This document shows positions 12,987 through 32,910 of a stretch of DNA of 64,000 nucleotides, piece by piece. A program made the translations under genes and the position numbers. The stretch covers positions 960,001 to 1,024,000 of the forward strand of contig CP000068.1 in NCBI GenBank assembly GCA_000002445.1, in the 5' to 3' direction. Source of the DNA: Trypanosoma brucei. Lineage: Eukaryota. Each line of letters begins with the position of its first letter. The first letter of the stretch is position 1. A model generated the notes under the pieces. The model ran no database searches. It was not told where the DNA came from and saw only the letters and a list, made by a program, of their open reading frames with translations.

Positions 12987-13053
<67 letters not shown>

Positions 13054-14406
13054 ATAAGGGGAGGGATAAAATAATAGCAAAAGTTATCATCACTATAACG
13101 ATAGATAACAAAAAAAACTATCTTTAAAAGCGTAACCAAACACAACCACACACCTGCATTCGTAACTGTACTGTAATGACAGATAAATCAATGGAAATGG
13201 ACGGTAGAAGTTGAACCAAAACTTAGGACAGAAATCAAAAAGTTTAAGTGAATGGTAAAATAGCAAAGACAAAAGAGAAAACACGCGAGAGGAATGAACA
13301 ACACCACAAACCAAAAATACAATAAAAAAATAAAAAGAGAAGAAATGAGTGAAACAAATGGGGGTAATAAAAAGCGTTTTTTTTAAATTTTGCGGCTGCT
13401 GACACATTAAAAGTTCTCATTCTCTCCGTCTCACACACAAGCGTACGATAATAATTTCCTCCTCTCGAATGGAAGACGTTTAAAAACACGCTAAAAATAA
13501 AATGAATGTGTCGCAAACGTGATGCACCGGATTGGGGAGAAGTATTGAAACAAATGCGTGATAAATATTTGCAGAGATAAAAAAAAATGATAGAAACCTG
13601 TTCCCTTTGACTTTTTTTTCCCCTTCCCCACCCTGTATTCCACTATTTGTTTTCTTTGTGCGGCTTTGGTGTTGTCCGCCTATTGCCGTTTTATTCTCTT
13701 TATTTCTTTGCGTATATATCTATCCTCCTTTCCCTTCTTCCTAAACCGCCTGGTTAGGGGAGACACTCCGCTGGCATCAAAAACAAAATAGAGTCAAGCG
13801 GAGCATGGAGGGAAAAGGAAAAGAAAAACAACAACAACACCTTCGTGTTATTGTTTCACTCATAACTTTTGCGTAGGGAATGGTAGAAAGGAATAAATGT
13901 ATATTTTAATAAAGGAGCGAAGGGGGAAAGCAAAAGCAAAACAAAGGAAAAATACAGACAAAAAAGGAATTTAAAACAGAAAAAATTGAACAATACGTAT
14001 TGATTTCTTTCGGGTTGTCACGTTTTGTCTGATTTCTCTTCCGACACCCGTGTTTTTATGTAACCAAATACGGGTAGGAGAATAAAAACAAGAAATATAT
14101 AAAGAAAATAATGATAAGGAAGGAGGGATAGAGCGATAAGGGTACAACATACACCTTATTTTCTTTCCTTTCATCCGCTAACTTAAGCGAACGTACCGGT
14201 AGATCATTCGACCGATTCCTTGTTTGTTTTTTCGCTTGTGCCTCCTCCCTCCCCCCCCCCCATACACACATCACCCACAAAACACCGTACATCACACGCC
14301 GTGCATCCAACCACATTAAAAACATGGAGACAAGATAGAAAAGAAAAACAAACAAACAAAAACCAGAAGAACACTGAGAGACTACCAGACACACACACAC
14401 AGTCGA
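11280..14406. other. 3.1 kb AT-rich intergenic/UTR region with multiple long (TA)n arrays
   Basis: No protein-like ORF. Extreme A/T skew and microsatellites. Probably a long 3' UTR of the upstream - strand gene plus the processing signals for eIF2-beta. Confidence 0.5.
12989..13051. repeat. (TA)~31 microsatellite; second (TA)n block at 12911-12940
   Basis: Read directly from the sequence. Confidence 0.95.
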
Positions 14407-15507: not shown

Positions 15508-16449
15508 CTCCTCCCTCGGGAAAGATTCTATATCACACCTCCGGTGATGTGTCCAGCAGCAAAACACTGAACTGTTTTCCAGAAGTTTTGGTTTTCAGCC
15601 CACGCCACCGCTTGTAATACAAGACCTCGGGTCTACTCAGAATAATTCTTTCGGCTTACCCCTGTTGCACGACTCACCTCCTCCTTGCCACAGTGGAGTT
15701 ACGCTTTAACCTCTTTCTTTTATTTTCCTTCTCTCGTGCTGTTGTTGCCTTTTTTTTTTTAGTGCACCGGCCAATGCGCATACACTTCTATATATTACGT
15801 ACAAATACCGTTTGCACTCAACAAAATGCCACAAAGCCCAACTCCTTTACTTTAACAGAAACCCCACTTCTTTTTTTCTTTTTAATGTATAAATAAAGTG
15901 GTCCAGGTATTCTGGCTATTATTACAACTTATTGTCCACCTTTATAATTTTATGTCTTCACCCTATGTACTTCACGCCCCCCTTTTTGTCTTTTTAGTTT
16001 TCTTAACTCCCGTTTCAGGTGACAAAAAGAGACGAAGCCAATCTCCCTTGGCGATATCTTCTCCACAAAGATATATTTCACTCCCTTTTGTTTCCTTCCC
16101 CACTCCCTTTGGAGCCACTCGGCGGATTTTAAAAGATCGCCCCTGCAGCTGTGGAGAGTCTAATAACAGTGGAGGTGATGCTGTAATCACAATGTAAAGG
16201 GTATCGTCCAGAAGAGGAGGGAGAAAAGAAATAAACAAATAAATAACGGAGCCGTTACGATTAGGAGGTTGAGAACAAGAGAGCAGTAAGTAACGTTATG
16301 AGTTGGGTCACAATGGCACAAGAGAGAAAAAAAGTTAACAACCGTTAGACTCCTACTGATGTGTATGTACGCGCGTGTTTGCGTACGCGTACGTGATGCA
16401 GTGACGCGTGGTAGATGCGGAAGCAAATAAAATGAATGACTGCAGTTCG

Positions 16450-17100
16450 TTACTCCTCTCCTGAAGGTGGGGGAGGCGGGCGCATGGCTTTGTCTTCCTC
16501 CCGTATTTCCACACGATACTCTGCTGAGCTGCGCTGCTGCTGCCAGTGATGGCGTCCACTAGTTGGTCCCAAACCACGTTGTTGGTGAAGGTACTCCCGT
16601 CCCGGTTGCACGTCCTGAAAATGTTGAAACTGCTGCCGACTTAACTCGGGGTCGTAAACTTCCTCCATATATGTTGCCACGTCTTGTCCGGTATCGCGTG
16701 GGATGCCCATGCTGTCGTACTCGTACGTGTGTGTCCGGGTAAAGTTATGGTGCTTCTCAAGCACATATATCGCACGCCGGGCCTCTTCAATACACTCGTC
16801 GATAAGTAACTTTTCCGTGGCGGTCGCTCGTCGGCGGAAAGCAAAGCGGCAGTAGGCGATGAGGCTGCGACGGCGAACACTTTTGAAGTCCATAAGCCCC
16901 TTAATAATGTTGCGGTAGAGAAGCAACACGAGACTTTTGTGCTCTGGTGTTGGTGTGAATTCCCAAACCTCCCTTCGCGCATGAGGACGCGGTTTCACTT
17001 CTTGTTCTTCCTCCGGAGAATGCAGTTTCTGAGTCGGAATGAACTTCTGCCTCAACAGCGGGGTGGAAAATAATACACCTCGCCGCGTTATGGGCAACAT
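16450..17100 (-). CDS. LYR-motif (Complex1_LYR-like) family protein, probable mitochondrial
   Basis: ATG verified at 17100. The segment LVLLLYRNIIKGLMDFKSVRRRSLIAYCRFAFRRR fits the LYR tripeptide motif with a downstream Phe and basic residues. Confidence 0.45.
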   Translation of the reverse strand: MLPITRRGVLFSTPLLRQKFIPTQKLHSPEEEQEVKPRPHARREVWEFTPTPEHKSLVLLLYRNIIKGLMDFKSVRRRSLIAYCRFAFRRRATATEKLLIDECIEEARRAIYVLEKHHNFTRTHTYEYDSMGIPRDTGQDVATYMEEVYDPELSRQQFQHFQDVQPGREYLHQQRGLGPTSGRHHWQQQRSSAEYRVEIREEDKAMRPPPPPSGEE

Positions 17101-18472
17101 CCGCCGTCCTCCTAAGAGACGGAATACAAATAAGACAATCCTATGTGGTTCTCCTTGTGTACTGCCGCGTCCTCTAGCCGCTTACACTAACATACACAAC
17201 CACTGGTCGCTGTGTAGGTTACTTCGCGTAATAGTGATAGGAAGGAAGGAATAAAATACGCACACATCAACACACGCACATAAATTGGCACCACGTAACG
17301 GCGCAAATCTTGCCGTTAAAACGTAACGAGGTTTCCGGAACAATATAAGATGACCCTCAACTGCACGTTAACACGCAAATGTAAATACACTTGCGCACAA
17401 CAACATCCCCAATAAAGAGAGAGAGATAGAGTGGTGGGGAAACAGAAAAAGGGACACACAGAAAATTATAGAGCAACGATACAGAAAGGAAACCACAAAT
17501 TAAAACATAGCGAGCCAAAATCTCCCTCTAGGAGGGAACAAAGGGACGGAGGCACGTGTTAGGAACACGCACCAGCAAGTGACCATCATGTCGTCGGTGA
17601 TTTCTCTACAAACCTCCAACCTATACACATTCACACGACGTTTCCAACATTGGAACTTAAAACCAACCACGAAGGAGGGAAGCGCAGGTGTCATTTGCAG
17701 TATAATCACGTCTCACGAGAACCTGAACGTTTTATCCCTCGAACTTCATTTATTATTTGTTGATTGAAAACGAAGTACCATCAAAAAACTTCCACCATAT
17801 ATAAATGCACACATATATATTATATATAAAAACATACGAATATATAGATTTTTTACAGCAATTTCCCCTTCCTTCCTTGCTTTGAAGGGTGCATAGATTC
17901 TATTTTTTCCCCTCTTCCCTCTTGCATGAAAAAGAACCACAAAATCGTATATGACGCACAAACACTTCCTAACACTGTGTACCTGTGTTTCCACCCCCCC
18001 CTCACAAATCACAGAGTACTTCACCAAATCTCACGTTTGTTTTGTTTTCTCCGTTTTTTTTTAAAAAAATCCTCCGCCTTACATACACTACTTTTTCTCA
18101 CTGTCCTCTCCATCTAAGCACATGTTTTAATCTTTTAATTTTACTCTCTCTCTCTCTCTCTCTCTTTGTCTCCATGTACACGCTGACTACACTACTCTGT
18201 TGACTGATGAGTCCAACCAAACAGCATCTCTAACGTTCTGTCTCTTTTCTTTTTACGCGAGAACATCCCACACAGTGCCCTTAACTTCGCATGCACTACT
18301 CGTTCAATGACTTGCCCCTTTTCAATCTGTTTACCCAGTTTCACACAATCTGCTTTAATACCAAGTGACAAACTCATGTTCAGTACAAAAAAAACACACA
18401 CACACACACACACACACATATGTAGCATCATCGAGAGCAACAAGTATGGTACAGCAACGACACTCACAACTC

Positions 18473-21400
18473 TTAAAGCTCCTGGACATTACTGAAGAAG
18501 GGGCTATTAGGGTTGAATTGAACATGCGTTGCCTCAAAGTTTTCACCCACAACCTCAAAACAATGCATTGCCATTTTTGCAGTTAGCCGCTTGTCGGGAT
18601 CGGTCACCAGTAGTGATAGAACGAAACTAGCAAATTCCAGCGAATAGTTTCGCGCCAGGATGTCGTTCATCACCATGGCAGCAAAACCCTCCCGTTCGGC
18701 CTCCTCGTACATCAGACGCACCGTCTGTACCGTTACACGGGCTGTTGCAAGAGCATACAGCACGCAACCGAGGCTCCACAAGTCGCTTGCTGTAGAGGTT
18801 TGACCAACCCAACACTCCGGTGCAATGTACGGTCGTGTGCCACCTCCTCGCCCCATCTTGCGGCGCCCCTCTAGCACAAAAGCAAGGCCAAAGTCCGTTA
18901 CAACAATAGGAATGATATCTGCTGTAATTCTCGTTGGGCAACCACCGCGACTGGTGGACCGCGGTGACTTTCCCCTTTCCTTCGGCGTTTCGTCAAACAC
19001 CTCAACTGCAACGGCAAGCGGAGAGGTAACGTCTTTCCCCTCCTTGCTTCCACCTTCCCTGTTGCAACCGTGATGAGATTTGCTGCCCCCATGCTCATGG
19101 CGCGAGCTCCCACTGCAGTCAAGGGGATTCCCACGAATAAGGATATTTTCGGGCTTAAGATCGCGGTGTACTATAGGCGGGCGCTGCGAGTGCAAGTGGT
19201 GAAGAACCGAAGAAAGTTGGTATGCAATTGAGAGTAGTTGCGGCTCCGTGAAGGGGTTTTCGCGCATCACAAACATGTCCTCCAGTTTCTTGTATATGTC
19301 ATTCATACCACTGCCACAGTTACTAGTGGAAGCCGCACCTACTCTACGGTCGGGTGCTGCGGCTCGCCCACATGGCGATGAACCGCAAGAGTCTTCTCCA
19401 CAAAACAACCTCGGCGCAGTGACTTCTGGAGGGAGAAGCGGGCTTTGACTGTTAGAGGAAATTAGACGCACCCCGTCCGAAGTATCCTCATCTCGTTTAT
19501 TAAGTTTTTCTTCATATGCACATGCTGCTTGCAGCTTTTCCCTCTCTAGTTGGGAGCGAACCTTGGGGTTATGGGTAGCGGAGTGTCGCATAGCGTAACC
19601 ACAGAGGTCACCAAGCGGATGATACTCCATGACAAGTCCTAGATAGCGGCTATGAGCTAGTCCTTGGTCCGGTGATGGCTGTGAAGAACGTTCCCTCACT
19701 TCAGCCACTGGTTTGAGTGGTGAGTGGCAGAGTGAAGCTGGAGGTACATTATCATTCGTTGGTAATATAACAACTCCATTTCCCATTGAGTATGGCTGTC
19801 TCCCCGGTGTTTGTGTGCCGTCCACCCTATGGTTGGTGTTAGTCACGGCACCAAGCGAGTGAGAACAAACATTGTTTCGGCCTCTTTCACTACGTTGAAC
19901 CTGCTGCCCCATCAGTGACGGTTGATATGTCGCCACTGTTTGCAAAGATGACACGCGACCCTCCCTTCCAATGTGGCCACCTAAAATACTAGAAGTGTCA
20001 ATTTCTGCAGTCAACACTTTAGTTGAGCTATTCCTCTGGAGGCGAGCTGCACGCACGGCGTCTGCGACCGACTTCGGTTTGGACATCGCCGGCACCGAAC
20101 AATGCGTAGGTGCGCAGGCGCATAAGTCCTCCGCCACAAAGTTGGTGTATTGCACACTTCCGGCGGCCGGTTGCACGTAATTGGGTAATGTGGGTGTTGG
20201 CGGTAATGCCGGTTGTGGACATCTGGCGACACCAGAAGCAGATATTGCGATATCGAAGTCCTTGTAGTGTATTCCACCCCGTGGAGCATAGCTTGTTCTC
20301 TTTGAAGTGGTAAGTGATTCGCCCTCCTGCTGTTGCTGCTCGCACTGGTCGTTGTTTTCGCCCTGTTGTTGTTGTTGAACTATAGGGGACGGCATTGGTT
20401 CCGTGGGTTGCGCAAAGTTGGGGTAGTGAACCACGATGGCTTGCTGTCGGGCTGGTGTAGTTAGCTGCGATGGTGTACCTACGGTCCTTACTGCTACAGT
20501 TGCCGAGTTCCCCTCTGCTCCAACAGCACTGGACGTGGTTAAACGGGTCGGTGCATTTGGCGGTGATGTTTCATGCACATCAGGAGGAGGCTGTGCGTGG
20601 TTTGAAGACCGTACACTTCCACAATGTGTTGACACCGAGGCAGCAGATGCTGATGGAGGAGGTGCAGTGGAGACCAGATTGTCCTCTTTACTCCGCTTGC
20701 CGATCGACGGTGGTGGCATATAAGACACTTCATCCGTACCTTTAGCCGTGTGTGATCTCGCAGGATCTGTGATATCGACCTTCTGAGGTTCAGCCAACGG
20801 TTTCTGACTTGCCGGCACTTCAGGTATATTACGTTTTTCTCCATGCGGTCCCGCAGGTGCACGCGGGATACCTGCATCCAACAGAGGTGCGTCGAGGCGC
20901 GAACAATTTATTTCCTTCGATGCAAACGCACAAGATCCTCGCTTCGGCTGAAAAACATATGGAGATGTCATCGCATGCGCCAAGAAGGCCTGTGGTGTTG
21001 AAGGAGATTCATTACCACCTGTAAACTCATAATTCATGAACATTTCCACAATTCGTATAATGTTTGGGTGGCCCTGCAGGGAGTTAATTGTTTCACACTC
21101 CCTTAGTGCGTCTAAGCGTTCTTTGTTATCTCTGCACACAAGGTATTTGAGAGCGAACTGCTGTTTGCTGCGTCTATGCTTGACCAAATATACAGACGAA
21201 AATGCACCTTCTCCAATACGTCGTACCACCTCGTAGCGCGAGTCCCGTGTAGTGTTCTTTACCACCATATCCATCTCTGTTCTGAAATTTGCACCATCCC
21301 CAGCAATTCTTAGATTCCGCGGAGTTGCAGCCGACCCACTTGCGGCTTCGGCAACTTTCCTCCTATGGCTTCTATCTGGTTCTGCCACGAACTGCCTTCT

Positions 21401-23401
21401 CCCGCCTGCCCTTTTGGGAGATATTCTGCTACCAATTGTCTTTCTCTCTTCCTTCGCAAGAAGATGTACAGTATAGTCCCCATCGGGTCCCCCAGCGGTT
21501 ACAGGACGAGAAATTACCGTTGTTGTCACCACCACCACGATAAGACCAGCGAGGCAAGTGGTAAAGACGCCAATAGTGTACAGAAGTTTGCGGTTTAGAC
21601 CTTCCTGGGGTTGCGGAGTCACCTCATGATGAATTCTGAACGGCGTGAAGGTGACCGGAGTATAGAGAAGAGACATTTCTACCGCTGCAGGGCAACCTCT
21701 GTCCACACAAGGGAGAGGTACAAAACCATTGGCAAAGCACACGAAAACACGCGTTGCCTCACCCATTGGGTAGAACACCGCCACCGTCGCTTCGTCCTCT
21801 TGCTGGAATACTTGTGCGTCCGTAGTCCCCGCCACGTTATCCGTACAGCGGACATTACTAGACAACCGCACAAATCCGCTGCGGGGTGGCCGCAAGGTGA
21901 GGTTAAGCGGGACACCAACGGGTATTACAGCACGCACCTCAGCTACGCTTGTGACCGCAACATCACTCGCACGGTAGAAGAGACGAGTGGAAGCCGTACC
22001 ATCAGCATCGAAACCACCAATATTAAAGAACACCATGGTTGCACCAAGAAGTCCAGTTGAGAGTGGGAAAGCAAAGGGTGTTGATATCTCAGTTGGAAGT
22101 GGGCTTCTACCGCCAATCAGCGGTTCCCACATATCTGGGCTGCTATCATTTCCGTTGTTGGGATTTGTGTGGTTGAAAAGTTTCTCAATGTCGAGGCAAT
22201 TGACGAAACTACTATTCATCATAACGCACAACCTACCGTTGAAGGCAAACATATGCCTTTTTTGAGGACTGGGAATGCTCAGTTCCATGTTACATGGCAC
22301 ACCAGGTATAAGAGACAAGGAAAGGGACGCACTAGTTTTGCTACTGTTGTCGTCATTTACAAGCGGATCACTTTCAACAAGCATAACAACCTGCACTGCG
22401 GGTGTAGGACACCACAAACCCACGGAAGATACTTCACCGGAATTGTCTGTCGCATTGACCCATTTGTGCCCCTCTGAGCACTCGCGAAACAGTTCCGATT
22501 CCCGCTGCTCAAGGGGCCCGTCATGATGCACCTCACCACCGACAACATACATAAGTGCGTTATCAAGTGTGACGAGCGGGTTTCGCACTGCCGTTGTGAG
22601 GTTGAAGATATCGGGATGGTACTGCCGTTTCTGTGTATCATACACATCCACAGTGCCAATAACTCCGCCCGTGTTCATATCAACTCCGCCCACGATGAAG
22701 AGTAAATGGCCATGTGAGGCACATGTAGCGTTGGCACGAAGTACTGTGCCCGCTGGTACACTGTCACCCACGCGCTCTTCCGCCTCTGCTCCCCTTGAGT
22801 CACTGACCCATGACTGTATGAGAAAGTGATCCACAACTTTGGTCATATCATTAGAGAGTGCCCATATGCTCGCGTACTGCTCCCTAACCAACGGGGACTG
22901 CGGAAACCCATCCCTCTCAGGGTAGTAATAACTGCAGGCACCAACAACATATACGCCCGAATTGTTTTGGTCATCAATATCATCTACCCGTACTGCACTC
23001 GTGGGGCCAGCCACCATAAGAGGTGTTGCATTCCCGTGTGCCCCACTACCAAGTCCTCGACCGCCCAGTTTGATGGGAAGTTCCATGTGCTGTGGCTCCG
23101 TTTGATCACTGGGGTCCACAATGTCAACGGCATTGACGCGCTGAGTACACGCAACATCTCTACAACCACCAATGATGACGAGGGAACCATTTAACCACAC
23201 AACGGCACTGTATGCTCGACCAATCGCCATTTCCGAGTCAAACGGTACCCATGAATCATCAGAATCCTTCAATGTACCATTGGTCGCGCGCCTAAGAGTT
23301 GAAGATTCTGCCTCACCCAACAGATAAACAACATTTGCGCCAAACAAAATTGTTACAAAAGCTACAAACACCAACATACAGAACAATGGCCGCACAACCA
23401 T
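18473..23401 (-). CDS. receptor-like protein kinase I: signal peptide, kelch-type beta-propeller-like ectodomain, single TM helix, ePK domain with ~450-aa low-complexity insert
   Basis: The track ORF reaches 23611, but its first codon is TTG and the next 69 codons read through a (TA)n/T9 tract. The first ATG is at 23401 (MVVRPLFCMLVFVAFVTILFG, a signal peptide). Repeated GG-containing propeller blades (IIGGCRD, FIVGGVDMNTGG, YVVGGEVHHDGP). TM LLYTIGVFTTCLAGLIVVVVTTTVI at about 21495-21570. Kinase motifs: GEGAFSSVY, ALKYL, HRDLKPENIL (~19165), VVTDFGLA (~18890), PYIAPECW. Confidence 0.85.
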   Translation of the reverse strand: MVVRPLFCMLVFVAFVTILFGANVVYLLGEAESSTLRRATNGTLKDSDDSWVPFDSEMAIGRAYSAVVWLNGSLVIIGGCRDVACTQRVNAVDIVDPSDQTEPQHMELPIKLGGRGLGSGAHGNATPLMVAGPTSAVRVDDIDDQNNSGVYVVGACSYYYPERDGFPQSPLVREQYASIWALSNDMTKVVDHFLIQSWVSDSRGAEAEERVGDSVPAGTVLRANATCASHGHLLFIVGGVDMNTGGVIGTVDVYDTQKRQYHPDIFNLTTAVRNPLVTLDNALMYVVGGEVHHDGPLEQRESELFRECSEGHKWVNATDNSGEVSSVGLWCPTPAVQVVMLVESDPLVNDDNSSKTSASLSLSLIPGVPCNMELSIPSPQKRHMFAFNGRLCVMMNSSFVNCLDIEKLFNHTNPNNGNDSSPDMWEPLIGGRSPLPTEISTPFAFPLSTGLLGATMVFFNIGGFDADGTASTRLFYRASDVAVTSVAEVRAVIPVGVPLNLTLRPPRSGFVRLSSNVRCTDNVAGTTDAQVFQQEDEATVAVFYPMGEATRVFVCFANGFVPLPCVDRGCPAAVEMSLLYTPVTFTPFRIHHEVTPQPQEGLNRKLLYTIGVFTTCLAGLIVVVVTTTVISRPVTAGGPDGDYTVHLLAKEERKTIGSRISPKRAGGRRQFVAEPDRSHRRKVAEAASGSAATPRNLRIAGDGANFRTEMDMVVKNTTRDSRYEVVRRIGEGAFSSVYLVKHRRSKQQFALKYLVCRDNKERLDALRECETINSLQGHPNIIRIVEMFMNYEFTGGNESPSTPQAFLAHAMTSPYVFQPKRGSCAFASKEINCSRLDAPLLDAGIPRAPAGPHGEKRNIPEVPASQKPLAEPQKVDITDPARSHTAKGTDEVSYMPPPSIGKRSKEDNLVSTAPPPSASAASVSTHCGSVRSSNHAQPPPDVHETSPPNAPTRLTTSSAVGAEGNSATVAVRTVGTPSQLTTPARQQAIVVHYPNFAQPTEPMPSPIVQQQQQGENNDQCEQQQQEGESLTTSKRTSYAPRGGIHYKDFDIAISASGVARCPQPALPPTPTLPNYVQPAAGSVQYTNFVAEDLCACAPTHCSVPAMSKPKSVADAVRAARLQRNSSTKVLTAEIDTSSILGGHIGREGRVSSLQTVATYQPSLMGQQVQRSERGRNNVCSHSLGAVTNTNHRVDGTQTPGRQPYSMGNGVVILPTNDNVPPASLCHSPLKPVAEVRERSSQPSPDQGLAHSRYLGLVMEYHPLGDLCGYAMRHSATHNPKVRSQLEREKLQAACAYEEKLNKRDEDTSDGVRLISSNSQSPLLPPEVTAPRLFCGEDSCGSSPCGRAAAPDRRVGAASTSNCGSGMNDIYKKLEDMFVMRENPFTEPQLLSIAYQLSSVLHHLHSQRPPIVHRDLKPENILIRGNPLDCSGSSRHEHGGSKSHHGCNREGGSKEGKDVTSPLAVAVEVFDETPKERGKSPRSTSRGGCPTRITADIIPIVVTDFGLAFVLEGRRKMGRGGGTRPYIAPECWVGQTSTASDLWSLGCVLYALATARVTVQTVRLMYEEAEREGFAAMVMNDILARNYSLEFASFVLSLLVTDPDKRLTAKMAMHCFEVVGENFEATHVQFNPNSPFFSNVQEL

Positions 23402-24181
23402 TGTATATATATATATATATTTTTTTTTTATAACTTCTTTTATCCAAGTGTTTTTATGACTGTCTGTATGAAAGTTCGGATACAATTCGCCAGAAATCCG
23501 GGGACTAGCGGGTAGCAAATGTGGCAGTGACGCCAGAGCACCACGAACTGCTCTTCCCCCTCCTCCACTGCTACCAATAATGTAGTTGTACTGTAAACAA
23601 TCACAACACAAATAAATAAGTAAATAAAGGGAAAGTTTGCACCATTAATGACAGGAAAAGTCAAGGAAGATATCAAGAAGGGAGTACGAGTAGTATGGGC
23701 GTTGCAAGTGATGGCAACAAAAAAATCAGAGGGAACAGAATGATTTCGTTCGCCACTTCCCTTTTCTACAACTGTGACCGTGCATATTAGTGGAAGGTAC
23801 ATCAGGGAGGGGGAAAGGATTGACTGATATTACTGAAGAATAAAAAGTTATATATATTTACGGAGAGGGGGGGGAGAGAACAGGAAAAACAATTAGCGGA
23901 TGGAAAAAGTGGGCTTACTGTACTCATATATCCGTTCTCCACTTTTTTTCATTTTTTAAAAAAATCAAAGCACCAAATCGGAAAACTCGGACGGACACTG
24001 CTATATACCGCAGTAAGGAACTAAAACAAAATGCGTACAGAAACAATAAATTATATATACGTCCGTAAGATAGTTTGAATCTACTTTGAAACTCTTGTTA
24101 CACAACTTTCTCCTTGTACGCTAACATCAACTGAGACACACCTATATCCACACACATACACACGCACAAGCAAGCAAACGA

Positions 24182-24212
<31 letters not shown>

Positions 24213-24769
24213 ATAGTGGTGGTAATGAACAAAATAGAGTCCAACAGCTGAAGACACGGAATAGTTCAATAACGTAATAAAAAAAGAAGCAAGCAAATAG
24301 AAAAAAAGTTGAAAGGGCGCTAACCGCAACGACCGCAAGGATGGGGTAGTTCCCCGTTTACAGGTTTAGAGGACCGGCAGTAGAAACGCAACCCCTAATG
24401 AATAAAATATGTCCCGCCAACAAACCGTTGCACGACAAAGATTAACCGAAGTAAACACCATACTACTTTTCATTCCCGCGAGTCTTGCATCATACCATTC
24501 GCCAGTATAGTCGTGATGCTTACGGAACGGCTGCAGCAGCGCCATGCAGGTGGTACATCACTGCTAACGATCCAACCCTTCACCAGTTGTCACCTTTCCC
24601 CCTTTCCCCAATTTCGTCCTCGTACCTTCCTTACCAACTACTTCCAGCTGATCAATTATCAGACTCTCATTTCTTCCTCTTTCTGCTTTCTTTACAATCC
24701 TCACTGTCCTCTCCTCACCTGCTAGCTAATAAAGAATAAATACCATCTTTATTTCGACACCAGTGACCC

Positions 24770-27700
24770 TCAAACGTTTTTGGAAACTGTCAGTGGCACC
24801 GGAGATTCCCTTTTCGATGAATTAAGAGAAGTTGCAACAAGTGAAGGAGACTCTCGTGCAATAAAAAATTCGCACTGCTCACCCTCCTCTGCGACAGTTT
24901 CGAAATACTGTTGGAGCACCTGCAATCGGCGACTCCTTCTACCATTTGGGGAGCCTAGTTTGTGTGCCCGAGCAACCGGAGGAACGTCCATCGTATTATG
25001 GTGTTCCTGTCGCATGCCCTGGCTTGAATCAGCGTGTGATCCATGGGAGAAACTAGTAATGGGAGGCATATTTTGTGACTCTACCGCTTTTGGTGGGGGA
25101 CTATTTAGTCCGAATCCTTCACCGGCCCCTCCAGACGGTGTAACAACTTCAACTGTGGCCCCACTGCGGTGCGTAGAGAAACTTGTAGATTTCAGCGTCC
25201 CGCAGACTACATCAGATCCTTGACCACTTACCGGTGCCCTCGATTCACCTCCGTATCCACTGACTTCCTCAGACGTCGCAGCCACCAACTGTTTATAGGA
25301 ATCGTCATGCATTATTCCACCTTCTGCTCCATTTCCTTCCTCATCACTGCATCCACTCGCAACATCATCGTCCCCCTTATACACCGTAACCATCGCAGCC
25401 TCTTCCGTCAGGCCATCCGTACCCTTACGACGCCTGCGAATAAATCTCAGGGCTTCCTCAGCACTTGGCCGGCGAGCTGGATCTGGCTCCAAAAGATAAA
25501 CAATGAAGGCCGCAAGTGCCATACTATACCCGTATACCTGTGTTAATTCTTCCAGCAACTTCTTTTTGAAGTCTGGTTTGTTGGACTCGCTAAACATAAC
25601 TTTTACATTGTCACTTTCTACGCGCTTTGCGCATACGGCGTAAAGAATGCACCCGGTGGCCCAAATATCCACCTTTGTGGAGTAGTGTCGCTGCCAACAC
25701 TCCGGTGCCACATACGGCAGCGAACCGACGCCCGTTTCGCAGAAGGTCTTGTCCATCACACGCGAAAGTCCAAAGTCTGTCACAACAATGCGCAGCGTCT
25801 CCTCTGAGGCGCCGGTGCCGATTCTTCCGCTGCTGTTCTTCGAACTCCAATCTACCCTGTCATATCTATCCCGGTTCCTCCCCCTTTTCACAGCAGGCGA
25901 CGAATCGAGAAGAATGTTTTCTGGCTTTAAGTCACGGTGAATGATTGGCGGTTTTTGTTGGTGCATGAACTGCAGAACCGTTAGTATCTGAAATGCAATG
26001 CTCACCACTGTCTTTTCAGGAATCTTTGGTTCTGACTTTTGTTGCCGCACCCACATACCCAAGTCCCCCCTCTCATGATAAGCCATTACAAGTGATAAGT
26101 ACCGCTCCCCCGCCTGGGGGCGGTGTGATGGTACGTGGGATTCTGATTCATCACCGCTGCCTACACGGTGAATGCGAGTGGGATCGTGTAGCAGCAGCTC
26201 ACCGCGACACTGACGTCGATACGCGCCTTTCCTCCCATCAACGCCGTCGGAGGTCGGTAGATGGGTATCAAACCGATAGGACATGAACATGTCAACGAGG
26301 CATATCACATTTGGGTGCCCTTGAAGGGTGTAAGCGACCTCACACTCTCGCATGGCCTCGTGACGATCCATGTCATCGGCACATTGAACGTACTTCAATG
26401 CGAATCGTTCTCCATCCATCACTCGTTCCACAAGGTACACTACGGAGAATCCACCCCTACCGAGGCGGCGCAGTACCCGGTATTTTCCATCCAGCAAACT
26501 TTGTTTCTGGTGCACCGGAAGAGCAGCACCTGGACCGAAACCTCGGCGATGTCTGCTCTTATCATCATTTTCGTCATCGTAGTCACCAGATTCGTCCTCC
26601 GAGAAACATCCTTCGACTACAGTCACATCAACTTCCTTACCATGTTTGTGCCTTATAGCATAACTTATCATGCTAGCACTCCACAGCACTAAACTCACAC
26701 CACATCCTACTGCCACACCAACAAGGTAAAGTGGTTCAACAGCTGGTGGCGGCACCGGCTGAGGACCTGGTGGATCCGGTACCCAATGAGTTACAGGGGA
26801 AAGAACAAATGGGTCGTTTGCATTTAGTGGTCGGTAGAAACCAGTAGTACACGGTCCTTGATGCGCATCCATCGCGCCCAGCGGTACGTGTGGCGCCCTT
26901 AACATTGATGAGGATGATTCATGCACCGCCCTCTCGTTACACCGCTGGACGGTGGCCGCTCCAGTGGAGAAGCAGACATAAACAAACAACTGCTCGTAAA
27001 ACACATTATCTGTATCATTACCGAAACTTCTTTGCGTTGGTCGGGGATGAAACACAAATTCATCTCGATGTGTGGTGCTGGTGTTTATGTAAGGAGTGGT
27101 GATATTATGTATACCGTTTATGAGGGAGCCAGTGAGAGTGATCGGACCCACGGCAACGGTGTTCACGACCGCGGAGACGTTCTTGCCCGGGTCAGTCATA
27201 TTTACTACGTAGGGCCAAGTATTGGCGAATGACAAATTCCCCAAGTTTAACAATACAGAGTTGCACGCAGGCGAATCGGAAAGCCGCAACAAACATGTTG
27301 ATGATGTTAGATTGCCGCTCACTTCCCCTGTAGCATTGATGCCCTGACAGGCAGTTGAAATCTGTTCCGACAAAAGGATTGCAAACGTGAAATTATACCA
27401 CAGTGGCTTATACCCGTTTACGTGCACTGTCCAGTTTCCGTCTTTATTTGGCAAGTCCGCCGGAGGGGGCGTTGGTTGATCGTGCATTGTTGCATTAGCT
27501 GTTGGTTGCTCCTCGTCATGAAATGGGTCGTCGAGAACACTCTGCCCCGTATGTGATATACTGTCCACCTCTGTCGTATCTCCTTTCGAAAATTTGGCCT
27601 CTACTATTTGGCCTCCTTCCCCACTGCGCGCTATTCCTAACATTTGCCGGTGTGTCGCGTCATCTGCCACTGAAATGTAGTTAAATCCCTGCACCGTCAC

Positions 27701-29044
27701 ATCAGCATGACCGTCTGCAACATGCACGTTACCGGTGAAGAGATCGCGTGAAATACCCGTCCCATCCGGTGGGGGTATTTGCCCGCCTATGAGATAGAGT
27801 GACATGCCGTCGGCATTTGGTACGGAAGCAATAACGGCGTTGGTACGCAGCGGTGCAAAACCAATCATCACATCTGTCGCGTCACTACCCGGCCCTGAGA
27901 GGTCCACCCATGACTCCAGTCGATCGAAAGAACGTCGATATGTTGCCGCAATCATTGCCAACGTTCGATTGTATATCATGAGCTGCGGCGACAACCAGTC
28001 TAACAACTCAGAGTCGAACTGACCAACATCTGCCGTGAAGTATGTGGGGTCCACAACATACACGTTGTCGTTGTATTCTGGCCAGCCTCTGTAGTCACGG
28101 CAGCCCCCTCCAATAAACACAAGCTCACTGTTGTCTACCACGCCCGGTGTAATAAGTGAGGTGCCCAACCCCCAACCAGCGTCGACAAATTGTCCAGTAA
28201 CTGTGTTGAACTGTGAAACGGACGTCATGGGGTTACCATCTATTAACGATACACCACCTACGATATAAATTGTACCATTGCCATTCCCCACACAACTAGC
28301 GTTGAAGCGAAGTGTTGCGGTGTCGGGAATCGAAATGTGTTGTATATCCATTGAGAGATCATCCACTGGAGGGAACTGCTGTTGGTACAACCTAATTACT
28401 TGGACAGATCGAAGAGTTGCATTGATTGTTTGCCCGCGACCAGGACGAACACCATAGGGAAGCATTGTACAGAAGCCAATAACGTACACTGTCGATCCCA
28501 GCCGAACTGCGTTTGATGTTCCGACAGCCGGAAAGTGCAACTTCGCCGGCACGCGCACGTCCCCTTTGGTTCTCCCGTGAAAAGTTTCACTACCACTACC
28601 GTCGTGTGCAAATGTTGCATTATCTTGAAACATCATGGGTGTCACAAATGTCTCGGTAGTTATATCCAAAGCACTGATCGTGGTAAGTGCGTAATACCGG
28701 ACGAAGTTCTCTGCCGATGTGAAGGGCCGAACGAGCCGGGTACCTCCAACGATAAGAACATAACGACCCATCGATACCGCTGACGGCAAAATACCCGTTA
28801 CGTTGAGGCTGGCTTTGCTTGGACTCCATCCCGTAAAGGTAACAGTTGTTTGGTCGGTGTCATCGTCAAGGAGAGATGATACCGCTTGAACGGCATTAGC
28901 AGATTCGTGACGCCGCGCAGGCGTGGCCCTCAGTGGCGCTGCTAAGGAATAACGGGATGTGAGGGAGAGGAGCAGCAGAGCCCATATCCTAAGAAAAAGG
29001 CAATATCTAACCAACACCATGCGTCCTCCTGGCGTTGTGGTCAT
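24770..29044 (-). CDS. receptor-like protein kinase II (paralogue of kinase I): signal peptide, beta-propeller-like ectodomain, TM helix, ePK domain
   Basis: The track start at 29089 is TTG. The first ATG is at 29044 (MTTTPGGRMVLVRYCLFLRIWALLLLSLTSRYSLAAP, a signal peptide). Propeller-like blades (YVLIVGGTRL, YIVGGVSLIDGN, YLIGGQIPPPDG, FIGGGCRDY). TM LYLVGVAVGCGVSLVLWSASMISYAI (~26655-26735). Kinase motifs: LGRGGFSVVYLV, ALKYVQC, IIHRDLKPENILLD (~25930), VVTDFGLSRV (~25790), PYVAPECW. Confidence 0.85.
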   Translation of the reverse strand: MTTTPGGRMVLVRYCLFLRIWALLLLSLTSRYSLAAPLRATPARRHESANAVQAVSSLLDDDTDQTTVTFTGWSPSKASLNVTGILPSAVSMGRYVLIVGGTRLVRPFTSAENFVRYYALTTISALDITTETFVTPMMFQDNATFAHDGSGSETFHGRTKGDVRVPAKLHFPAVGTSNAVRLGSTVYVIGFCTMLPYGVRPGRGQTINATLRSVQVIRLYQQQFPPVDDLSMDIQHISIPDTATLRFNASCVGNGNGTIYIVGGVSLIDGNPMTSVSQFNTVTGQFVDAGWGLGTSLITPGVVDNSELVFIGGGCRDYRGWPEYNDNVYVVDPTYFTADVGQFDSELLDWLSPQLMIYNRTLAMIAATYRRSFDRLESWVDLSGPGSDATDVMIGFAPLRTNAVIASVPNADGMSLYLIGGQIPPPDGTGISRDLFTGNVHVADGHADVTVQGFNYISVADDATHRQMLGIARSGEGGQIVEAKFSKGDTTEVDSISHTGQSVLDDPFHDEEQPTANATMHDQPTPPPADLPNKDGNWTVHVNGYKPLWYNFTFAILLSEQISTACQGINATGEVSGNLTSSTCLLRLSDSPACNSVLLNLGNLSFANTWPYVVNMTDPGKNVSAVVNTVAVGPITLTGSLINGIHNITTPYINTSTTHRDEFVFHPRPTQRSFGNDTDNVFYEQLFVYVCFSTGAATVQRCNERAVHESSSSMLRAPHVPLGAMDAHQGPCTTGFYRPLNANDPFVLSPVTHWVPDPPGPQPVPPPAVEPLYLVGVAVGCGVSLVLWSASMISYAIRHKHGKEVDVTVVEGCFSEDESGDYDDENDDKSRHRRGFGPGAALPVHQKQSLLDGKYRVLRRLGRGGFSVVYLVERVMDGERFALKYVQCADDMDRHEAMRECEVAYTLQGHPNVICLVDMFMSYRFDTHLPTSDGVDGRKGAYRRQCRGELLLHDPTRIHRVGSGDESESHVPSHRPQAGERYLSLVMAYHERGDLGMWVRQQKSEPKIPEKTVVSIAFQILTVLQFMHQQKPPIIHRDLKPENILLDSSPAVKRGRNRDRYDRVDWSSKNSSGRIGTGASEETLRIVVTDFGLSRVMDKTFCETGVGSLPYVAPECWQRHYSTKVDIWATGCILYAVCAKRVESDNVKVMFSESNKPDFKKKLLEELTQVYGYSMALAAFIVYLLEPDPARRPSAEEALRFIRRRRKGTDGLTEEAAMVTVYKGDDDVASGCSDEEGNGAEGGIMHDDSYKQLVAATSEEVSGYGGESRAPVSGQGSDVVCGTLKSTSFSTHRSGATVEVVTPSGGAGEGFGLNSPPPKAVESQNMPPITSFSHGSHADSSQGMRQEHHNTMDVPPVARAHKLGSPNGRRSRRLQVLQQYFETVAEEGEQCEFFIARESPSLVATSLNSSKRESPVPLTVSKNV

Positions 29045-30948: not shown

Positions 30949-32910
30949 TTACTTTTCAAAGAGCGTGGTGAGAGAATTTTCTGTATGAAGTTTCTCAATG
31001 GCACGTGCAAGCAACGGAGCAATAGGCAACACGCGCAGCCTCCTGGCGATGTGAGGATTTTTAAAGACCTCGTCGTGCTCTACGCTATCCGTAACCACAA
31101 TAAGATCGATAGGACTTTCTATGAGCCGCTCAACCGCGCGACCTGATATGATGAAGTGCGTTGCGATAAGTATGATACGACTGGCACCTTCCTCCCGCAA
31201 CTTGCAGGCAGTTTGACATATTTCAGTAGCTTCGTCAACAGAGGTATCTACAACAATGCACAGTTTCCCTTGTACATCTCCAACAAGGTCAATGCCTTCA
31301 GAGGTGATCGTGGTATCGCCATCATCTTGGATGGCGCAAATTCCCTGCTCCTGCTGCAGTAGCGCCTGCTCGAAGGCGCGTGTGCTCCCTACATTCGCAC
31401 CGCAATGGTTTATGTTGAGCACAGTATCCTGCAGCCCCCGATAAACCTGGCGCCTTACCGCTGTGCACAGTGGAACGAACTGCTCATCGGGGGAGAGTTT
31501 TTTGTACTGCATTAGCGCGTCTGCGAAATTCTTTGCACGATGAACACCGGCTCCATTGGGTGCCACGACGGTAATATTCCTGAAGTCGTGCCCTTCAGCG
31601 GTCAGCTGGTTCGCAATGTACTGAACGAACTCATACCGCGCTGATATCAGCTCAAGTGGAACGGAAAACATTCCTTCTACCTGATCGATGGGCATGTCAA
31701 CAGTTATTACGTGTTGGCAGCCCATACTCTCCAATATCTCCGCCACTGCAGCCATGGAAGAAACACTTTCAGTAAAGGAAATATAGGGAATAACAGCCGT
31801 AATACGCGCCGCAGAACTTGCTCTTGCCGCATGTATCATGAGAGCAAGTTCCATTAAAGTACCGGAGTGGGACAGACCCACACGATCGCACCTCACCAGT
31901 GACTGAAGCACAAACAAATCGTCGCCGCGAACGGAACGTGGGAGCACCACGTTCACTTCTCCATTTGGATATTGACCGCAACACGGTGGGTAACGGTTGC
32001 ATTGAAGCACTTCGCATATCATCTTCTCGCAAAAGAGGCTTGTACTTCCTGGAAGAATGCAGACGGCAAAATCACCGTGTCTCTCCTGGTGTGGGAGCCG
32101 AAGTGTGAAGAAGAAAGTGTCGCTGTGCGGGAGAATGCGGCGGACATTTACCCCCGCTCGGTGCTCATATCGTGTAAGGACCTCTACTGTCTCTTCATAT
32201 GTTAGGCGAAAGACGGTGCCGTAAAATGCAATGAGGTCGAGGGCAACACGTCGCAGGTCATTTGCCGGCTGCGATATTGTACTACAGCTGATAACCTTAT
32301 CAACCATCAGCAGATGCTTTTGTAGCTCCAGACTGTCACGGGCGCAGCGCTGCATGAACTTCTTCAGTATTTTACGCAAAGCGGCCAGATTCAGAGCCCT
32401 GTATTGCAATATGGCCTGAGTTTTCACGTAGAGCTTCGGGATGTGTTCCTCGGGGCGTGCCCGGATCTCCTCTTCACTCATATTCTTTAGTTCTTCCACA
32501 CCTGCCAGGAGATCCGCCTCGAGACACTGTTGGTATTGCTTAACCTTTGTGAACGACAGCTGGATATCTTTGAAGAATTTCACCTCCAGTTCGGAACGTC
32601 TTTTCAGAAGTTCATCCAAAGAGCGTTTAGGGCTAAGGGAACTCCCCCCTGTTTGTGGCAATTTCATAGCCTCCGGTTGGTTAGCGAAGACGTCTTCAGT
32701 TTCCGAAGCAGTGCTTGTGTCCGCCGCGGCCGCTCTCGCTTCAATCTCACGAACTCGTTCGATTTCTTTGCACAGTTGTTCCAACTCCTTCGCGATTGGC
32801 TTCAGTTCAAAGTAAGCGACATAATTGTTGAGCGTGAAATCTGTATTGTACTCCGAAAGAAGGCGGCGGTGGAAGGCTTGCCCTTCAGAGCGACCCTTTC
32901 CTGTGCGCAT
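30949..32910 (-). CDS. SPX domain fused to a PRPP-synthetase-like (ribose-phosphate pyrophosphokinase family) domain, predicted catalytically degenerate
   Basis: ATG verified at 32910. The N-terminal ~215 aa carries the SPX hallmarks (MRTGKGR...YVAYFELKPIAKEL..., ALNLAALRKILKKF). The C-terminal part aligns with PRPS along its length: NGEVNVVLPRSVRGDDLFVLQS, LMELALMIHAARASSAARITAVIPY, GCQHVITVDMPIDQVEGMF (the canonical DLHA His is Pro), VAPNGAGVHRAKNFA, and LVGDVQGKLCIVVDTSVDEATEI (the PRPP loop DDMADTCGT is degenerate). Confidence 0.8.
   Translation of the reverse strand: MRTGKGRSEGQAFHRRLLSEYNTDFTLNNYVAYFELKPIAKELEQLCKEIERVREIEARAAAADTSTASETEDVFANQPEAMKLPQTGGSSLSPKRSLDELLKRRSELEVKFFKDIQLSFTKVKQYQQCLEADLLAGVEELKNMSEEEIRARPEEHIPKLYVKTQAILQYRALNLAALRKILKKFMQRCARDSLELQKHLLMVDKVISCSTISQPANDLRRVALDLIAFYGTVFRLTYEETVEVLTRYEHRAGVNVRRILPHSDTFFFTLRLPHQERHGDFAVCILPGSTSLFCEKMICEVLQCNRYPPCCGQYPNGEVNVVLPRSVRGDDLFVLQSLVRCDRVGLSHSGTLMELALMIHAARASSAARITAVIPYISFTESVSSMAAVAEILESMGCQHVITVDMPIDQVEGMFSVPLELISARYEFVQYIANQLTAEGHDFRNITVVAPNGAGVHRAKNFADALMQYKKLSPDEQFVPLCTAVRRQVYRGLQDTVLNINHCGANVGSTRAFEQALLQQEQGICAIQDDGDTTITSEGIDLVGDVQGKLCIVVDTSVDEATEICQTACKLREEGASRIILIATHFIISGRAVERLIESPIDLIVVTDSVEHDEVFKNPHIARRLRVLPIAPLLARAIEKLHTENSLTTLFEK

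What the first reader, a model, noticed from the sequence alone, without database searches (positions are those of the whole stretch)
18473..29044. Tandem pair of divergent receptor-like protein kinases with beta-propeller ectodomains
Two adjacent same-strand genes share one architecture: cleavable-looking signal peptide, a ~700-aa ectodomain made of repeated GG-containing blades (kelch/galactose-oxidase-like), one TM helix, then a cytoplasmic ePK domain with intact catalytic motifs (HRDLKPENIL, DFG, APE). Transmembrane receptor-type kinases are rare in kinetoplastids, and a tandem duplicated pair suggests a lineage-specific sensing module. The paralogues have diverged strongly in ectodomain sequence and in the size of the kinase-domain inserts, consistent with an old duplication under diversifying pressure.
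Basis: partly seen in the sequence, partly recalled or inferred. Interest (0 to 1): 0.75.

Follow-up and report, generated by a model that had tools for sequence, protein, structure and literature searches.

The report
Tandem Kelch-propeller transmembrane kinases, Trypanosoma brucei
Two neighbouring Trypanosoma brucei genes (Tb927.5.3150 and Tb927.5.3160) encode membrane-spanning protein kinases whose outer part is a six-bladed Kelch propeller; one is already published as an ER membrane kinase, and its twin has the same build but is missing from the published list.

Summary
The window is T. brucei TREU927 DNA. The two minus-strand genes are Tb927.5.3150 (A, 1642 aa) and Tb927.5.3160 (B, 1424 aa).

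- **Paralogy.** A and B are homologous in the kinase and also, weakly, in the ectodomain.
- **Age.** The B-then-A gene order is conserved in T. cruzi, Leptomonas and environmental kinetoplastid-like contigs. The duplication is therefore ancient.
- **Other lineages.** Leishmaniinae carry a third, kinase-degenerate paralogue. Their A orthologue has lost the propeller.
- **Prior knowledge.** Most of this is published. Jensen et al. 2021 described A (signal peptide, transmembrane domain, Kelch) and localised it to the ER. Both genes are "orphan" kinases with no RNAi fitness phenotype.
- **What is new.** B was missed as an eleventh transmembrane kinase. The full fold and the family history are also new.

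"Diversifying pressure" and surface localisation are not supported. Function remains inferred: a lumen- or outside-facing sensor kinase.

The parts
18473..23401 (-). Gene A = Tb927.5.3150 (XP_844987.1), 1642 aa, CDS including stop
   Evidence: ORF. Exact match to the TREU927 protein. The cloning primers of Jensen 2021 encode its first and last residues. The Jones 2014 RNAi primer maps at 21979-21998.
23336..23401 (-). A signal peptide (aa 1-22)
   Evidence: Hydrophobic N-terminus, Kyte-Doolittle 2.5. Annotated as '1-22 (ss)' in Jensen 2021 Table S2.
21992..23254 (-). A Kelch beta-propeller (about aa 50-470), six GG-type blades
   Evidence: Kelch_1 E 2.7e-10, two stretches. It aligns blade for blade with B and its orthologues. 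The family profile hits KLHL2 and NS1-BP Kelch domains in the PDB. A's own AlphaFold2 model failed (pLDDT 37.5), so the fold is inferred from homology to B.
21587..21991 (-). A membrane-proximal Cys-containing all-beta 'stalk' domain (aa 471-605)
   Evidence: The conserved motifs RLS..C..N.AGT and VYVCF are shared with B and all family members. No Pfam hit.
21509..21577 (-). A transmembrane helix (aa 609-631)
   Evidence: Kyte-Doolittle 2.37. TMHMM 607-629 in Jensen 2021 Table S2.
18557..21256 (-). A cytosolic ePK domain (aa 716-1615), split by three inserts; the largest lies between beta4 and beta5 (aa 796-1248, nt 19658-21016)
   Evidence: Pkinase E 5.7e-40 in three stretches. The inserts are only 27-33% identical to T. 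cruzi, against 77-90% for the kinase core.
24770..29044 (-). Gene B = Tb927.5.3160 (XP_844988.1), 1424 aa, CDS including stop
   Evidence: ORF. Exact match to the TREU927 protein. The Jones 2014 Tb927.5.3160 RNAi primers map at 28598-28617 and 28077-28096.
28940..29044 (-). B signal-peptide-like N-terminus (aa 1-35)
   Evidence: Hydrophobic stretch LFLRIWALLLLSL followed by SLA/AP. This is a heuristic call only; no signal-peptide predictor was available.
27650..28852 (-). B six-bladed Kelch beta-propeller (aa 65-465)
27461..27649 (-). B disordered acidic/Pro-rich linker (aa 466-528)
   Evidence: pLDDT below 50. It is 27% identical to T. cruzi. Seven of the 13 differences between T. b. brucei and T. 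b. gambiense fall here.
26750..27460 (-). B membrane-proximal all-beta domain (aa 529-765), homologous to A's stalk with an extra N-terminal part
   Evidence: Confidently modelled beta strands. It is 53% identical to T. cruzi. It shares the RLS..C and VYVCFS motifs with A. The fold was not assigned.
26666..26740 (-). B transmembrane helix (aa 769-793), followed by the basic stretch RHKHGK
   Evidence: Kyte-Doolittle 1.96 over 19 aa with no charged residue in about 26 aa. All B orthologues have a stronger hydrophobic segment (2.3-3.2) at the same position. B is not among the ten TMHMM-predicted transmembrane kinases of Jensen 2021.
25445..26500 (-). B cytosolic ePK domain (aa 849-1200) with short inserts
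   Evidence: Pkinase E 7.1e-42. The core is 83-94% identical to T. cruzi.
24773..25444 (-). B C-terminal tail (aa 1201-1424), low complexity
   Evidence: No Pfam hit. It is 34% identical to T. cruzi.

Best explanation
Genes A (Tb927.5.3150) and B (Tb927.5.3160) are ancient tandem paralogues. Each encodes a type I membrane Ser/Thr kinase.

Shown here: an N-terminal signal sequence, a six-bladed Kelch beta-propeller, an all-beta stalk, one transmembrane helix, and a catalytically complete 'RD'-type ePK domain with disordered inserts.

Inferred: the propeller and stalk face the lumen of the secretory pathway, which is topologically the outside of the cell, and the kinase faces the cytosol. The propeller binds a protein or glycan partner on its top face. 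Occupancy changes the oligomeric state across the single-pass helix. The kinase domains then trans-phosphorylate their activation segments and phosphorylate cytosolic substrates.

The published location of A (ER, plus some posterior endosome-like signal) makes an endomembrane sensor the most likely setting, rather than a classical cell-surface receptor. The genes are individually dispensable for bloodstream-form growth in culture, so the role is probably conditional or redundant between the paralogues.
For: - **Identity.**
- **Kinase integrity.**
- **Kelch fold.**
- **Transmembrane helix and topology.** A single conserved hydrophobic segment sits 60-90 aa before the kinase in every family member. 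Sequon density is 1.97 and 2.21 per 100 aa in the ectodomains against 0.49 and 0.32 in the cytosolic parts. Basic residues follow B's helix.
- **Paralogy.**
- **Conservation pattern.** The kinase core is 77-94% identical between T. brucei and T. cruzi, and the propeller and stalk are 41-53% identical with few gaps. Both halves are therefore under purifying selection.
- **Family size.** About 25 cluster representatives share the same signal peptide, propeller, transmembrane helix and kinase build.
- **Synteny.** The order PRS-like gene, then B, then A is conserved in T. cruzi.
- **Localisation of A.** ER in bloodstream forms, and a reticulated pattern in TrypTag: Jensen 2021, PMC8519429.
- **Fitness.** No loss of fitness by RNAi: Jones 2014 Table S1, PMC3894213.
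Against: - No ligand, substrate, kinase activity or topology has been measured for either protein.
- The ER signal for A came from an ectopically expressed, C-terminally tagged copy, so mislocalisation or retention is possible. The authors say they cannot exclude that some protein reaches the plasma membrane.
- B has never been localised, as far as the searchable literature shows.
- B's transmembrane helix and signal peptide rest on hydropathy and on conservation among orthologues, not on a dedicated predictor. TMHMM evidently did not call the helix.
- A's own structure model failed.
- Leishmaniinae A orthologues work without any propeller, so the ectodomain is not indispensable for every function of the kinase.
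Confidence: 0.6

Rival explanations
1. The proteins are classical cell-surface or flagellar-pocket receptor kinases. A small, functionally relevant pool reaches the surface, where the propeller senses a host-, vector- or parasite-derived ligand.
For: - The type I architecture carries 12-17 N-glycosylation sequons in the ectodomain.
- A shows extra V5 signal that does not overlap BiP in the posterior, endosome-rich region. The authors could not exclude a plasma-membrane pool.
- No KKXX-type ER retrieval motif is visible at either C-terminus (sequences).
- The absence of a culture phenotype would fit a sensor needed only in the host or vector.
Against: The bulk of tagged A co-localises with BiP, with Pearson coefficients of 0.56-0.76 across the ER-localised kinases. 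TrypTag shows a reticulated pattern in procyclic forms. No surface-proteome evidence was found in the searchable literature.
Confidence: 0.2
2. A and B, together with the third paralogue where it is present, work as a heteromeric receptor/co-receptor complex rather than as independent homodimeric sensors. One subunit supplies the ligand-binding ectodomain and the other supplies catalysis.
For: - Tandem linkage and retention of both copies extend across trypanosomatids and into environmental relatives.
- In Leishmaniinae the labour looks divided. The propeller-bearing paralogue has degenerate catalytic motifs (HGN or QGD for HRD; DGG or DAG for DFG). The catalytically intact A orthologue has lost the propeller but keeps a transmembrane anchor.
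- Single knock-downs give no phenotype.
Against: Gene order is generally highly conserved in kinetoplastid polycistrons, so linkage alone says little. There is no interaction data. In Trypanosoma both proteins keep a complete ectodomain and a complete kinase.
Confidence: 0.15
3. The propeller is not a sensor. It is a luminal enzyme or lectin module, of the kind represented by Kelch-fold sugar mutarotases and specifier proteins. In this reading the kinase merely regulates or anchors it.
Against: These matches are no better than those to protein-binding Kelch domains such as LZTR1, KLHDC3, KLHL and Keap1. Sequence identity is 12-15%. No catalytic residues were identified or tested. Leishmaniinae A orthologues dispense with the propeller altogether.
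Confidence: 0.05

Closest known systems
Tb927.5.3150 as described in Jensen et al. 2021 (PLoS One 16:e0258814, 'membrane kinome of T. brucei')
   Same: It is gene A itself. The paper reports a signal peptide, a transmembrane domain, two Kelch or Kelch-like motifs and a C-terminal ePK domain, ER localisation, and conservation in T. cruzi and Leishmania.
   Different: - The paper lists ten transmembrane kinases and does not include the neighbouring paralogue Tb927.5.3160 (gene B).
- It marks only Kelch blades, not a complete six-bladed propeller plus stalk.
- It counts a TMHMM 'TMD' at 442-464. That segment aligns with the sixth blade motif (MVFFNIGGF), so it is probably a beta strand.
- Here the L. 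major orthologue (LmjF.08.0530) is shown to lack the propeller.
PERK and IRE1 (ER-resident type I stress-sensor kinases); in trypanosomatids the PERK-like eIF2K2 (Tb927.4.2500)
   Same: They share a type I topology with a luminal sensor domain and a cytosolic kinase, and ER or endomembrane residence (published for A). A large insert lies between beta4 and beta5 of the kinase; that this is typical of eIF2-alpha kinases is my own background knowledge.
   Different: The luminal domain here is a Kelch propeller, not the IRE1/PERK luminal fold. The kinase is classed 'Unique' or 'Orphan', not PEK. The nearest solved kinases by sequence are NEK7, GAK, AAK1 and CAMK members. There is no RNase domain.
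Plant and Entamoeba receptor-like Ser/Thr kinases (type I RLKs)
   Same: They share the layout of signal peptide, extracellular repeat domain, single transmembrane helix and cytosolic RD Ser/Thr kinase.
   Different: As far as I know, a Kelch propeller is not among the described plant RLK ectodomains (LRR, LysM, lectin, malectin and others); this was not tested. The kinase is not of the IRAK/Pelle (TKL) lineage. Surface localisation has not been shown.
Six-bladed Kelch propellers (LZTR1, KLHDC3/10, KLHL/Keap1, muskelin, NS1-BP)
   Different: Those are cytosolic or nuclear substrate adaptors. Here the propeller is placed behind a signal peptide, carries many N-glycosylation sequons and is fused through a transmembrane helix to a kinase.

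Membership tests
Eukaryotic protein kinase superfamily (Pfam PF00069), catalytically competent | Pkinase HMM score above the gathering threshold | tested here: met
   A scores 137.8 bits and B 144.1 bits against a cut-off of 31.7.
Eukaryotic protein kinase superfamily (Pfam PF00069), catalytically competent | Gly-rich loop, beta3 Lys, alphaC Glu, HRD Asp, DFG Asp and APE all present | tested here: met
   A has GEGAFSSV at 730, FALK at 749, RECE at 767, HRDLKPEN at 1412, DFG at 1503 and APE at 1527. B has the equivalents at 862, 881, 899, 1036, 1090 and 1113. Enzymatic activity itself was not tested.
Kelch-repeat six-bladed beta-propeller | Kelch-repeat HMM hit above the gathering threshold | tested here: met
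   Met for A: Kelch_1 scores 40.0 bits against a cut-off of 20.1. Not met for B taken alone: Kelch_4 scores 17.5 against 21.6 and Kelch_1 14.9 against 20.1. The family profile hits PDB Kelch domains at E 2.9e-9.
Kelch-repeat six-bladed beta-propeller | Closed propeller of six four-stranded blades with the hydrophobic-GG strand-2 motif | tested here: met
   In the B model (pLDDT above 90 in the propeller) the six GG or equivalent motifs all coincide with predicted strands. They lie at B aa 98-101, ~187, 259-263, 310-314, ~364 and 417-421. The top structural matches are all six-bladed Kelch domains. For A this is inferred from the alignment only, because its own model failed.
Type I receptor-like kinase (signal peptide, ectodomain, single transmembrane helix, cytosolic kinase, at the cell surface) | Cleavable signal peptide and a single transmembrane helix between the ectodomain and the kinase | tested here: met
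   This rests on hydropathy, conservation and sequon asymmetry. For A there are published SignalP and TMHMM calls. No dedicated predictor was run for B.
Type I receptor-like kinase (signal peptide, ectodomain, single transmembrane helix, cytosolic kinase, at the cell surface) | Residence at the plasma membrane and ligand-dependent activation | not testable with these tools
   Published data place tagged A mainly in the ER. No localisation data exist for B. No ligand is known.
PERK/IRE1-type ER stress-sensor kinases | Luminal domain homologous to the IRE1/PERK sensor domain | tested here: not met
   The luminal domain is a Kelch propeller plus a beta stalk. No IRE1 or PERK luminal match appeared in Pfam.
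PERK/IRE1-type ER stress-sensor kinases | Kinase domain of the PEK (eIF2-alpha kinase) or IRE1 family | tested here: not met
   Both genes are classified 'Unique' (Parsons 2005) and 'Orphan' (Jones 2014). The best PDB sequence hits are NEK7, GAK, CAMK1 and Snf1. PKR appears only within one construct named 'PKR, Ser/Thr-protein…' (6npy_B).
Galactose oxidase / glyoxal oxidase-type secreted Kelch enzymes | Seven-bladed propeller with a copper-radical site | tested here: not met
   Six blades are seen, and no galactose oxidase appears among the top 50-60 structural matches. Copper-ligand residues were not examined.

The most novel reading that the evidence does not exclude
The locus encodes a kinetoplastid-specific, multi-subunit receptor system. 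It consists of two or three ancient tandem paralogues: C, B and A, in that order after the PRPP-synthetase-like gene. The products would assemble into heteromeric complexes in which propeller-bearing and catalytic roles can be split between subunits. Leishmaniinae appear to show such a split: a propeller-bearing pseudokinase sits next to a propeller-less active kinase. Such a complex would be a new class of eukaryotic transmembrane signalling module with a Kelch-propeller ectodomain, sensing a luminal or extracellular protein or glycan cue relevant to life-cycle or stress responses.
Probability: 0.15. Interest if true: 0.7.

Novelty: new member of a known kind. Interest (0 to 1): 0.35.

Why it matters
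Trypanosomatids have very few membrane-spanning kinases and no known receptor kinase. Each candidate therefore matters for the question of how these parasites sense host, vector or organelle state.

The practical gains here are modest.
- The published T. brucei membrane kinome of ten should probably be eleven, because Tb927.5.3160 has the same architecture as Tb927.5.3150.
- The two genes are paralogues, so the negative single-gene RNAi results may reflect redundancy. A double knockout is the informative experiment.
- The ectodomain is a complete, well-modelled six-bladed Kelch propeller that could be expressed for ligand screening.
- Domain loss in Leishmaniinae, together with a pseudokinase paralogue, offers a natural experiment on which parts are needed.

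Tried and rejected
1. **Word-indexed homologue searches with ectodomain queries.** Searches returned only one or two hits and did not even recover the query's own cluster. They were useless for distribution. The exhaustive profile search solved this.
2. **AlphaFold2 of A's ectodomain.** With an 8-sequence alignment it gave pLDDT 37.5 and was discarded. No fold search was run on it.
4. **AFDB50 fold library.** It was not available, so I could not look for the two-domain ectodomain outside the PDB. I also could not assign the fold of the stalk domain, because whole-chain searches are dominated by the propeller.
5. **A wrong assumption, corrected.** I first took L. major XP_001681081 (P0041) to be LmjF.08.0530, the A orthologue. 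Synteny and BLAST showed it is a third paralogue. The true A orthologue is the next gene and lacks the propeller. The labels in the trees are wrong in this respect.
6. **PERK/IRE1 membership.** Considered and rejected (see the membership test).
7. **Remnant of the third paralogue or further copies in the window.** None was found (tblastn).
8. **ORFs between A and B (23402-24769).** Only short ORFs are present, and none was pursued as a candidate gene.
9. **tRNA and tandem-repeat scans.** They found nothing relevant to the finding.
10. **Literature searches for B.** Its old and new identifiers and those of its orthologues gave no paper beyond the kinome lists.

Full report
**What is there**

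The flagged interval holds two long minus-strand ORFs. Read from their first ATG they are gene A (18473-23401, 1642 aa) and gene B (24770-29044, 1424 aa).

Both are identical to annotated 'protein kinase, putative' entries of Trypanosoma brucei brucei TREU927: XP_844987.1 and XP_844988.1, on a 1,608,198-bp chromosome record.

Published primers fix the gene names.
- The cloning primers for Tb927.5.3150 in Jensen et al. 2021 encode MVVRPLFC and FFSNVQEL, which are the two ends of A.
- The RNAi primers of Jones et al. 2014 for Tb927.5.3160 map inside B at 28598-28617 and 28077-28096.
- One of their Tb927.5.3150 primers maps inside A at 21979-21998.

**Checking the observation**

- **Kinase.** Pfam finds Pkinase in both (E 5.7e-40 and 7.1e-42). 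Kelch_1 is above threshold in A, and only sub-threshold Kelch hits appear in B. All canonical catalytic motifs are present in both proteins, and both are RD kinases.
- **Inserts.** The kinase domains are interrupted. A has about 450 aa between beta4 and beta5, about 110 aa between alphaD and alphaE, and about 70 aa before DFG. B has shorter inserts at the first and third positions.
- **Transmembrane segment.** A single hydrophobic segment precedes each kinase, at A 609-631 and B 769-793. Every orthologue has one at the same place.
- **Topology.** N-glycosylation sequons are 4-7 times denser on the N-terminal side, and B's helix is followed by RHKHGK. Both features fit an N-terminus-out, kinase-in orientation.
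- **Paralogy.** BLASTP of A against B gives 51% identity in the N-lobe, 32% in the C-lobe, and a significant 25% match over 171 aa of the ectodomain (E 3e-7). The multiple alignment shows shared blade motifs and a shared membrane-proximal Cys-containing motif set.

**Fold of the ectodomain**

A first AlphaFold2 run on A with 8 sequences failed (pLDDT 37.5).

I then collected the family with an exhaustive profile search. It gave 195 hits at E<1e-3, of which 37 were below 1e-10. A 33-sequence alignment produced a good model of B's ectodomain, with mean pLDDT 79.2 and pTM 0.83. The model has three parts.
- A propeller at B aa 65-465, mostly above pLDDT 90.
- A disordered linker at about aa 472-514.
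- A second, all-beta domain at about aa 525-755.

Six hydrophobic-GG strand motifs coincide with modelled strands, so the propeller has six blades. It is not galactose-oxidase-like with seven blades. The propeller accounts for about 400 aa, not the whole ectodomain. The fold of the stalk was not assigned.

**What is already known**

- Parsons et al. 2005 list both genes as 'Unique' ePKs. Tb05.27M3.180 is paired with LmjF08.0530 and Tc..503955.100. Tb05.27M3.200 is paired with Tc..503955.110 and has no Leishmania partner. Only the first appears in their table of kinases with predicted transmembrane domains.
- Jensen et al. 2021 describe Tb927.5.3150 as one of ten T. brucei kinases with a predicted transmembrane domain. 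They report a signal peptide and two Kelch or Kelch-like domains. A C-terminally V5-tagged copy co-localised with BiP in bloodstream forms, with some extra posterior signal, and TrypTag shows a reticulated pattern.
- Tb927.5.3160 is not in their list. Their TMHMM screen evidently missed B's rather weak helix, whose Kyte-Doolittle score of 1.96 compares with 2.3-3.2 in its orthologues.
- Their extra TMHMM 'TMD' at 442-464 of A falls on the sixth blade motif. It is probably a strand rather than a helix.
- In Jones et al. 2014, Table S1, both genes are 'Orphan'. They show no loss of fitness in the Alsford RIT-seq screen and Alamar blue ratios of about 1.0.
- I found no other paper that mentions either gene or its orthologues.

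**Evolution**

Gene order at this locus differs between lineages, as the table shows.

| Lineage (locus) | Gene order |
|---|---|
| T. brucei (this window) | PRPP-synthetase-like, B, A, small conserved gene |
| T. cruzi (L003) | PRPP-synthetase-like, B, A, small conserved gene |
| Metagenomic scaffold (L004) | B-like gene immediately followed by an A-like gene |
| Unknown kinetoplastid-like organism (L002) | Three tandem paralogues: C-like, B, A |
| Leptomonas seymouri (L007) | PRPP-synthetase-like, C, B, A |
| L. major (L006) | PRPP-synthetase-like, C, A |

- The T. cruzi A orthologue is 39% identical to A over its full length.
- The Leishmaniinae C paralogues are 1927-2351 aa. They keep the propeller and the transmembrane helix but have degenerate catalytic motifs: HGN or QGD for HRD, DGG or DAG for DFG, and a broken Gly-loop. 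Their Pkinase scores fall below Pfam's cut-off.
- The Leishmaniinae A orthologues keep an intact kinase and a transmembrane anchor but have no propeller. In L. major the helix lies 85-101 aa after M88, which matches Jensen's table for LmjF.08.0530.
- The T. brucei window holds no third copy or remnant of one.
- NJ trees separate an A clade and a B clade, each containing Trypanosoma and more distant sequences. These trees are rough, and one of my labels in that call was wrong (see 'tried and rejected').

The duplication therefore predates the Trypanosoma-Leishmaniinae split.

Between T. brucei and T. cruzi the kinase core is 77-94% identical. The propeller and stalk are 41-53% identical with few gaps, and the inserts and linkers are 17-33% identical. 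This is purifying selection on the folded parts with fast drift in disordered parts. It gives no sign of diversifying selection on the ectodomain, although no codon-level test was run.

**How it most likely works**

Shown: the domain order, the intact catalytic motifs, the Kelch fold and the conservation pattern.

Inferred from the type I build and from published ER localisation:
- The propeller and stalk lie in the lumen of the secretory pathway and the RD kinase lies in the cytosol.
- A partner binding to the propeller alters oligomerisation through the single helix.
- This drives activation-segment phosphorylation and then substrate phosphorylation.

I favour an endomembrane (ER to endosome) sensor over a surface receptor, because of the BiP co-localisation of A. 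However, the tag was ectopic and C-terminal, and B has never been localised.

Redundancy or heteromerisation between the paralogues could explain the negative single-gene RNAi results. The Leishmaniinae split into a propeller-bearing pseudokinase and a propeller-less kinase is suggestive of co-operation, but it is not evidence of interaction.

**Comparison and verdict**

The closest known thing is gene A itself, as published. By analogy it works like PERK or IRE1, or like plant receptor-like kinases. It is not a member of those families, because both the luminal domain and the kinase class differ.

Its suggested surface location, its 'diversifying pressure' and its implied novelty are not supported.

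The new elements are modest.
- B is an overlooked transmembrane Kelch kinase.
- The fold is a complete six-bladed propeller plus a stalk.
- The family extends from two to three members.
- Leishmaniinae have lost domains from some members.

I rate this a new member of a known kind, with interest 0.35.

Noticed in passing
L006 (L. major GCA_916722125.1 OU755542.1) 10001-16984 and 17388-23639; L007 (Leptomonas seymouri) 1824-8879, 10001-15031, 16710-22634: Leishmaniinae carry a third tandem paralogue with a propeller, a transmembrane helix and degenerate kinase motifs (HGN or QGD, DGG or DAG). In L. major it is annotated as a 'conserved hypothetical protein'. Their orthologue of Tb927.5.3150 (LmjF.08.0530) has lost the Kelch ectodomain but keeps a transmembrane anchor. 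L. major appears to lack the B type.
   Followed up: partly
L002 (Logan SRR7085473 contig) 278-3490, 3726-7559, 7802-10777: An unidentified kinetoplastid-like organism has three tandem Kelch-transmembrane kinases (C-like, B, A). The two complete ones have intact kinase motifs; the third is cut by the contig end before its catalytic loop. This suggests the three-gene array is ancestral and that Trypanosoma lost the first copy.
   Followed up: partly
window 27461-27649 (B aa 466-528): Seven of the 13 amino-acid differences between the T. b. brucei and T. b. gambiense B proteins cluster in the 63-aa disordered linker between the propeller and the stalk.
   Followed up: no
window 21992-22100 (A aa ~442-464): The published TMHMM 'TMD' at 442-464 of Tb927.5.3150 coincides with the sixth Kelch blade motif (MVFFNIGGF). 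It is probably a buried beta strand, not a membrane helix.
   Followed up: partly
window ~2400-7300: GC skew changes sign near 6 kb. The only large plus-strand ORF (1377-2402) lies upstream of a long run of minus-strand genes. This looks like a divergent strand-switch region between polycistronic units.
   Followed up: no
window 12000-14000 and 39728-39777: There is an AT-rich patch (GC 0.317) containing a perfect (AT)31 microsatellite at 12990-13051. A second perfect (AT)25 repeat lies at 39728-39777.
   Followed up: no
window 30949-32910: This PRPP-synthetase-like gene has a roughly 280-aa N-terminal extension ahead of its Pribosyltran_N domain. It is a syntenic neighbour of the kinase array in T. 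cruzi, L. major and Leptomonas. The Leptomonas orthologue has a faint SPX hit.
   Followed up: no
window 41201-47761, 48545-51064, 52509-57500: Three large minus-strand ORFs (2186, 839 and 1663 aa) have no Pfam hit at E<1e-3.
   Followed up: no
window 10338-11279 and 58494-62693: Other context genes are an eIF-5/eIF-2B-domain protein (eIF2-beta-like) and a 1399-aa multi-WD40 propeller protein. Neither has an evident link to the kinases.
   Followed up: no
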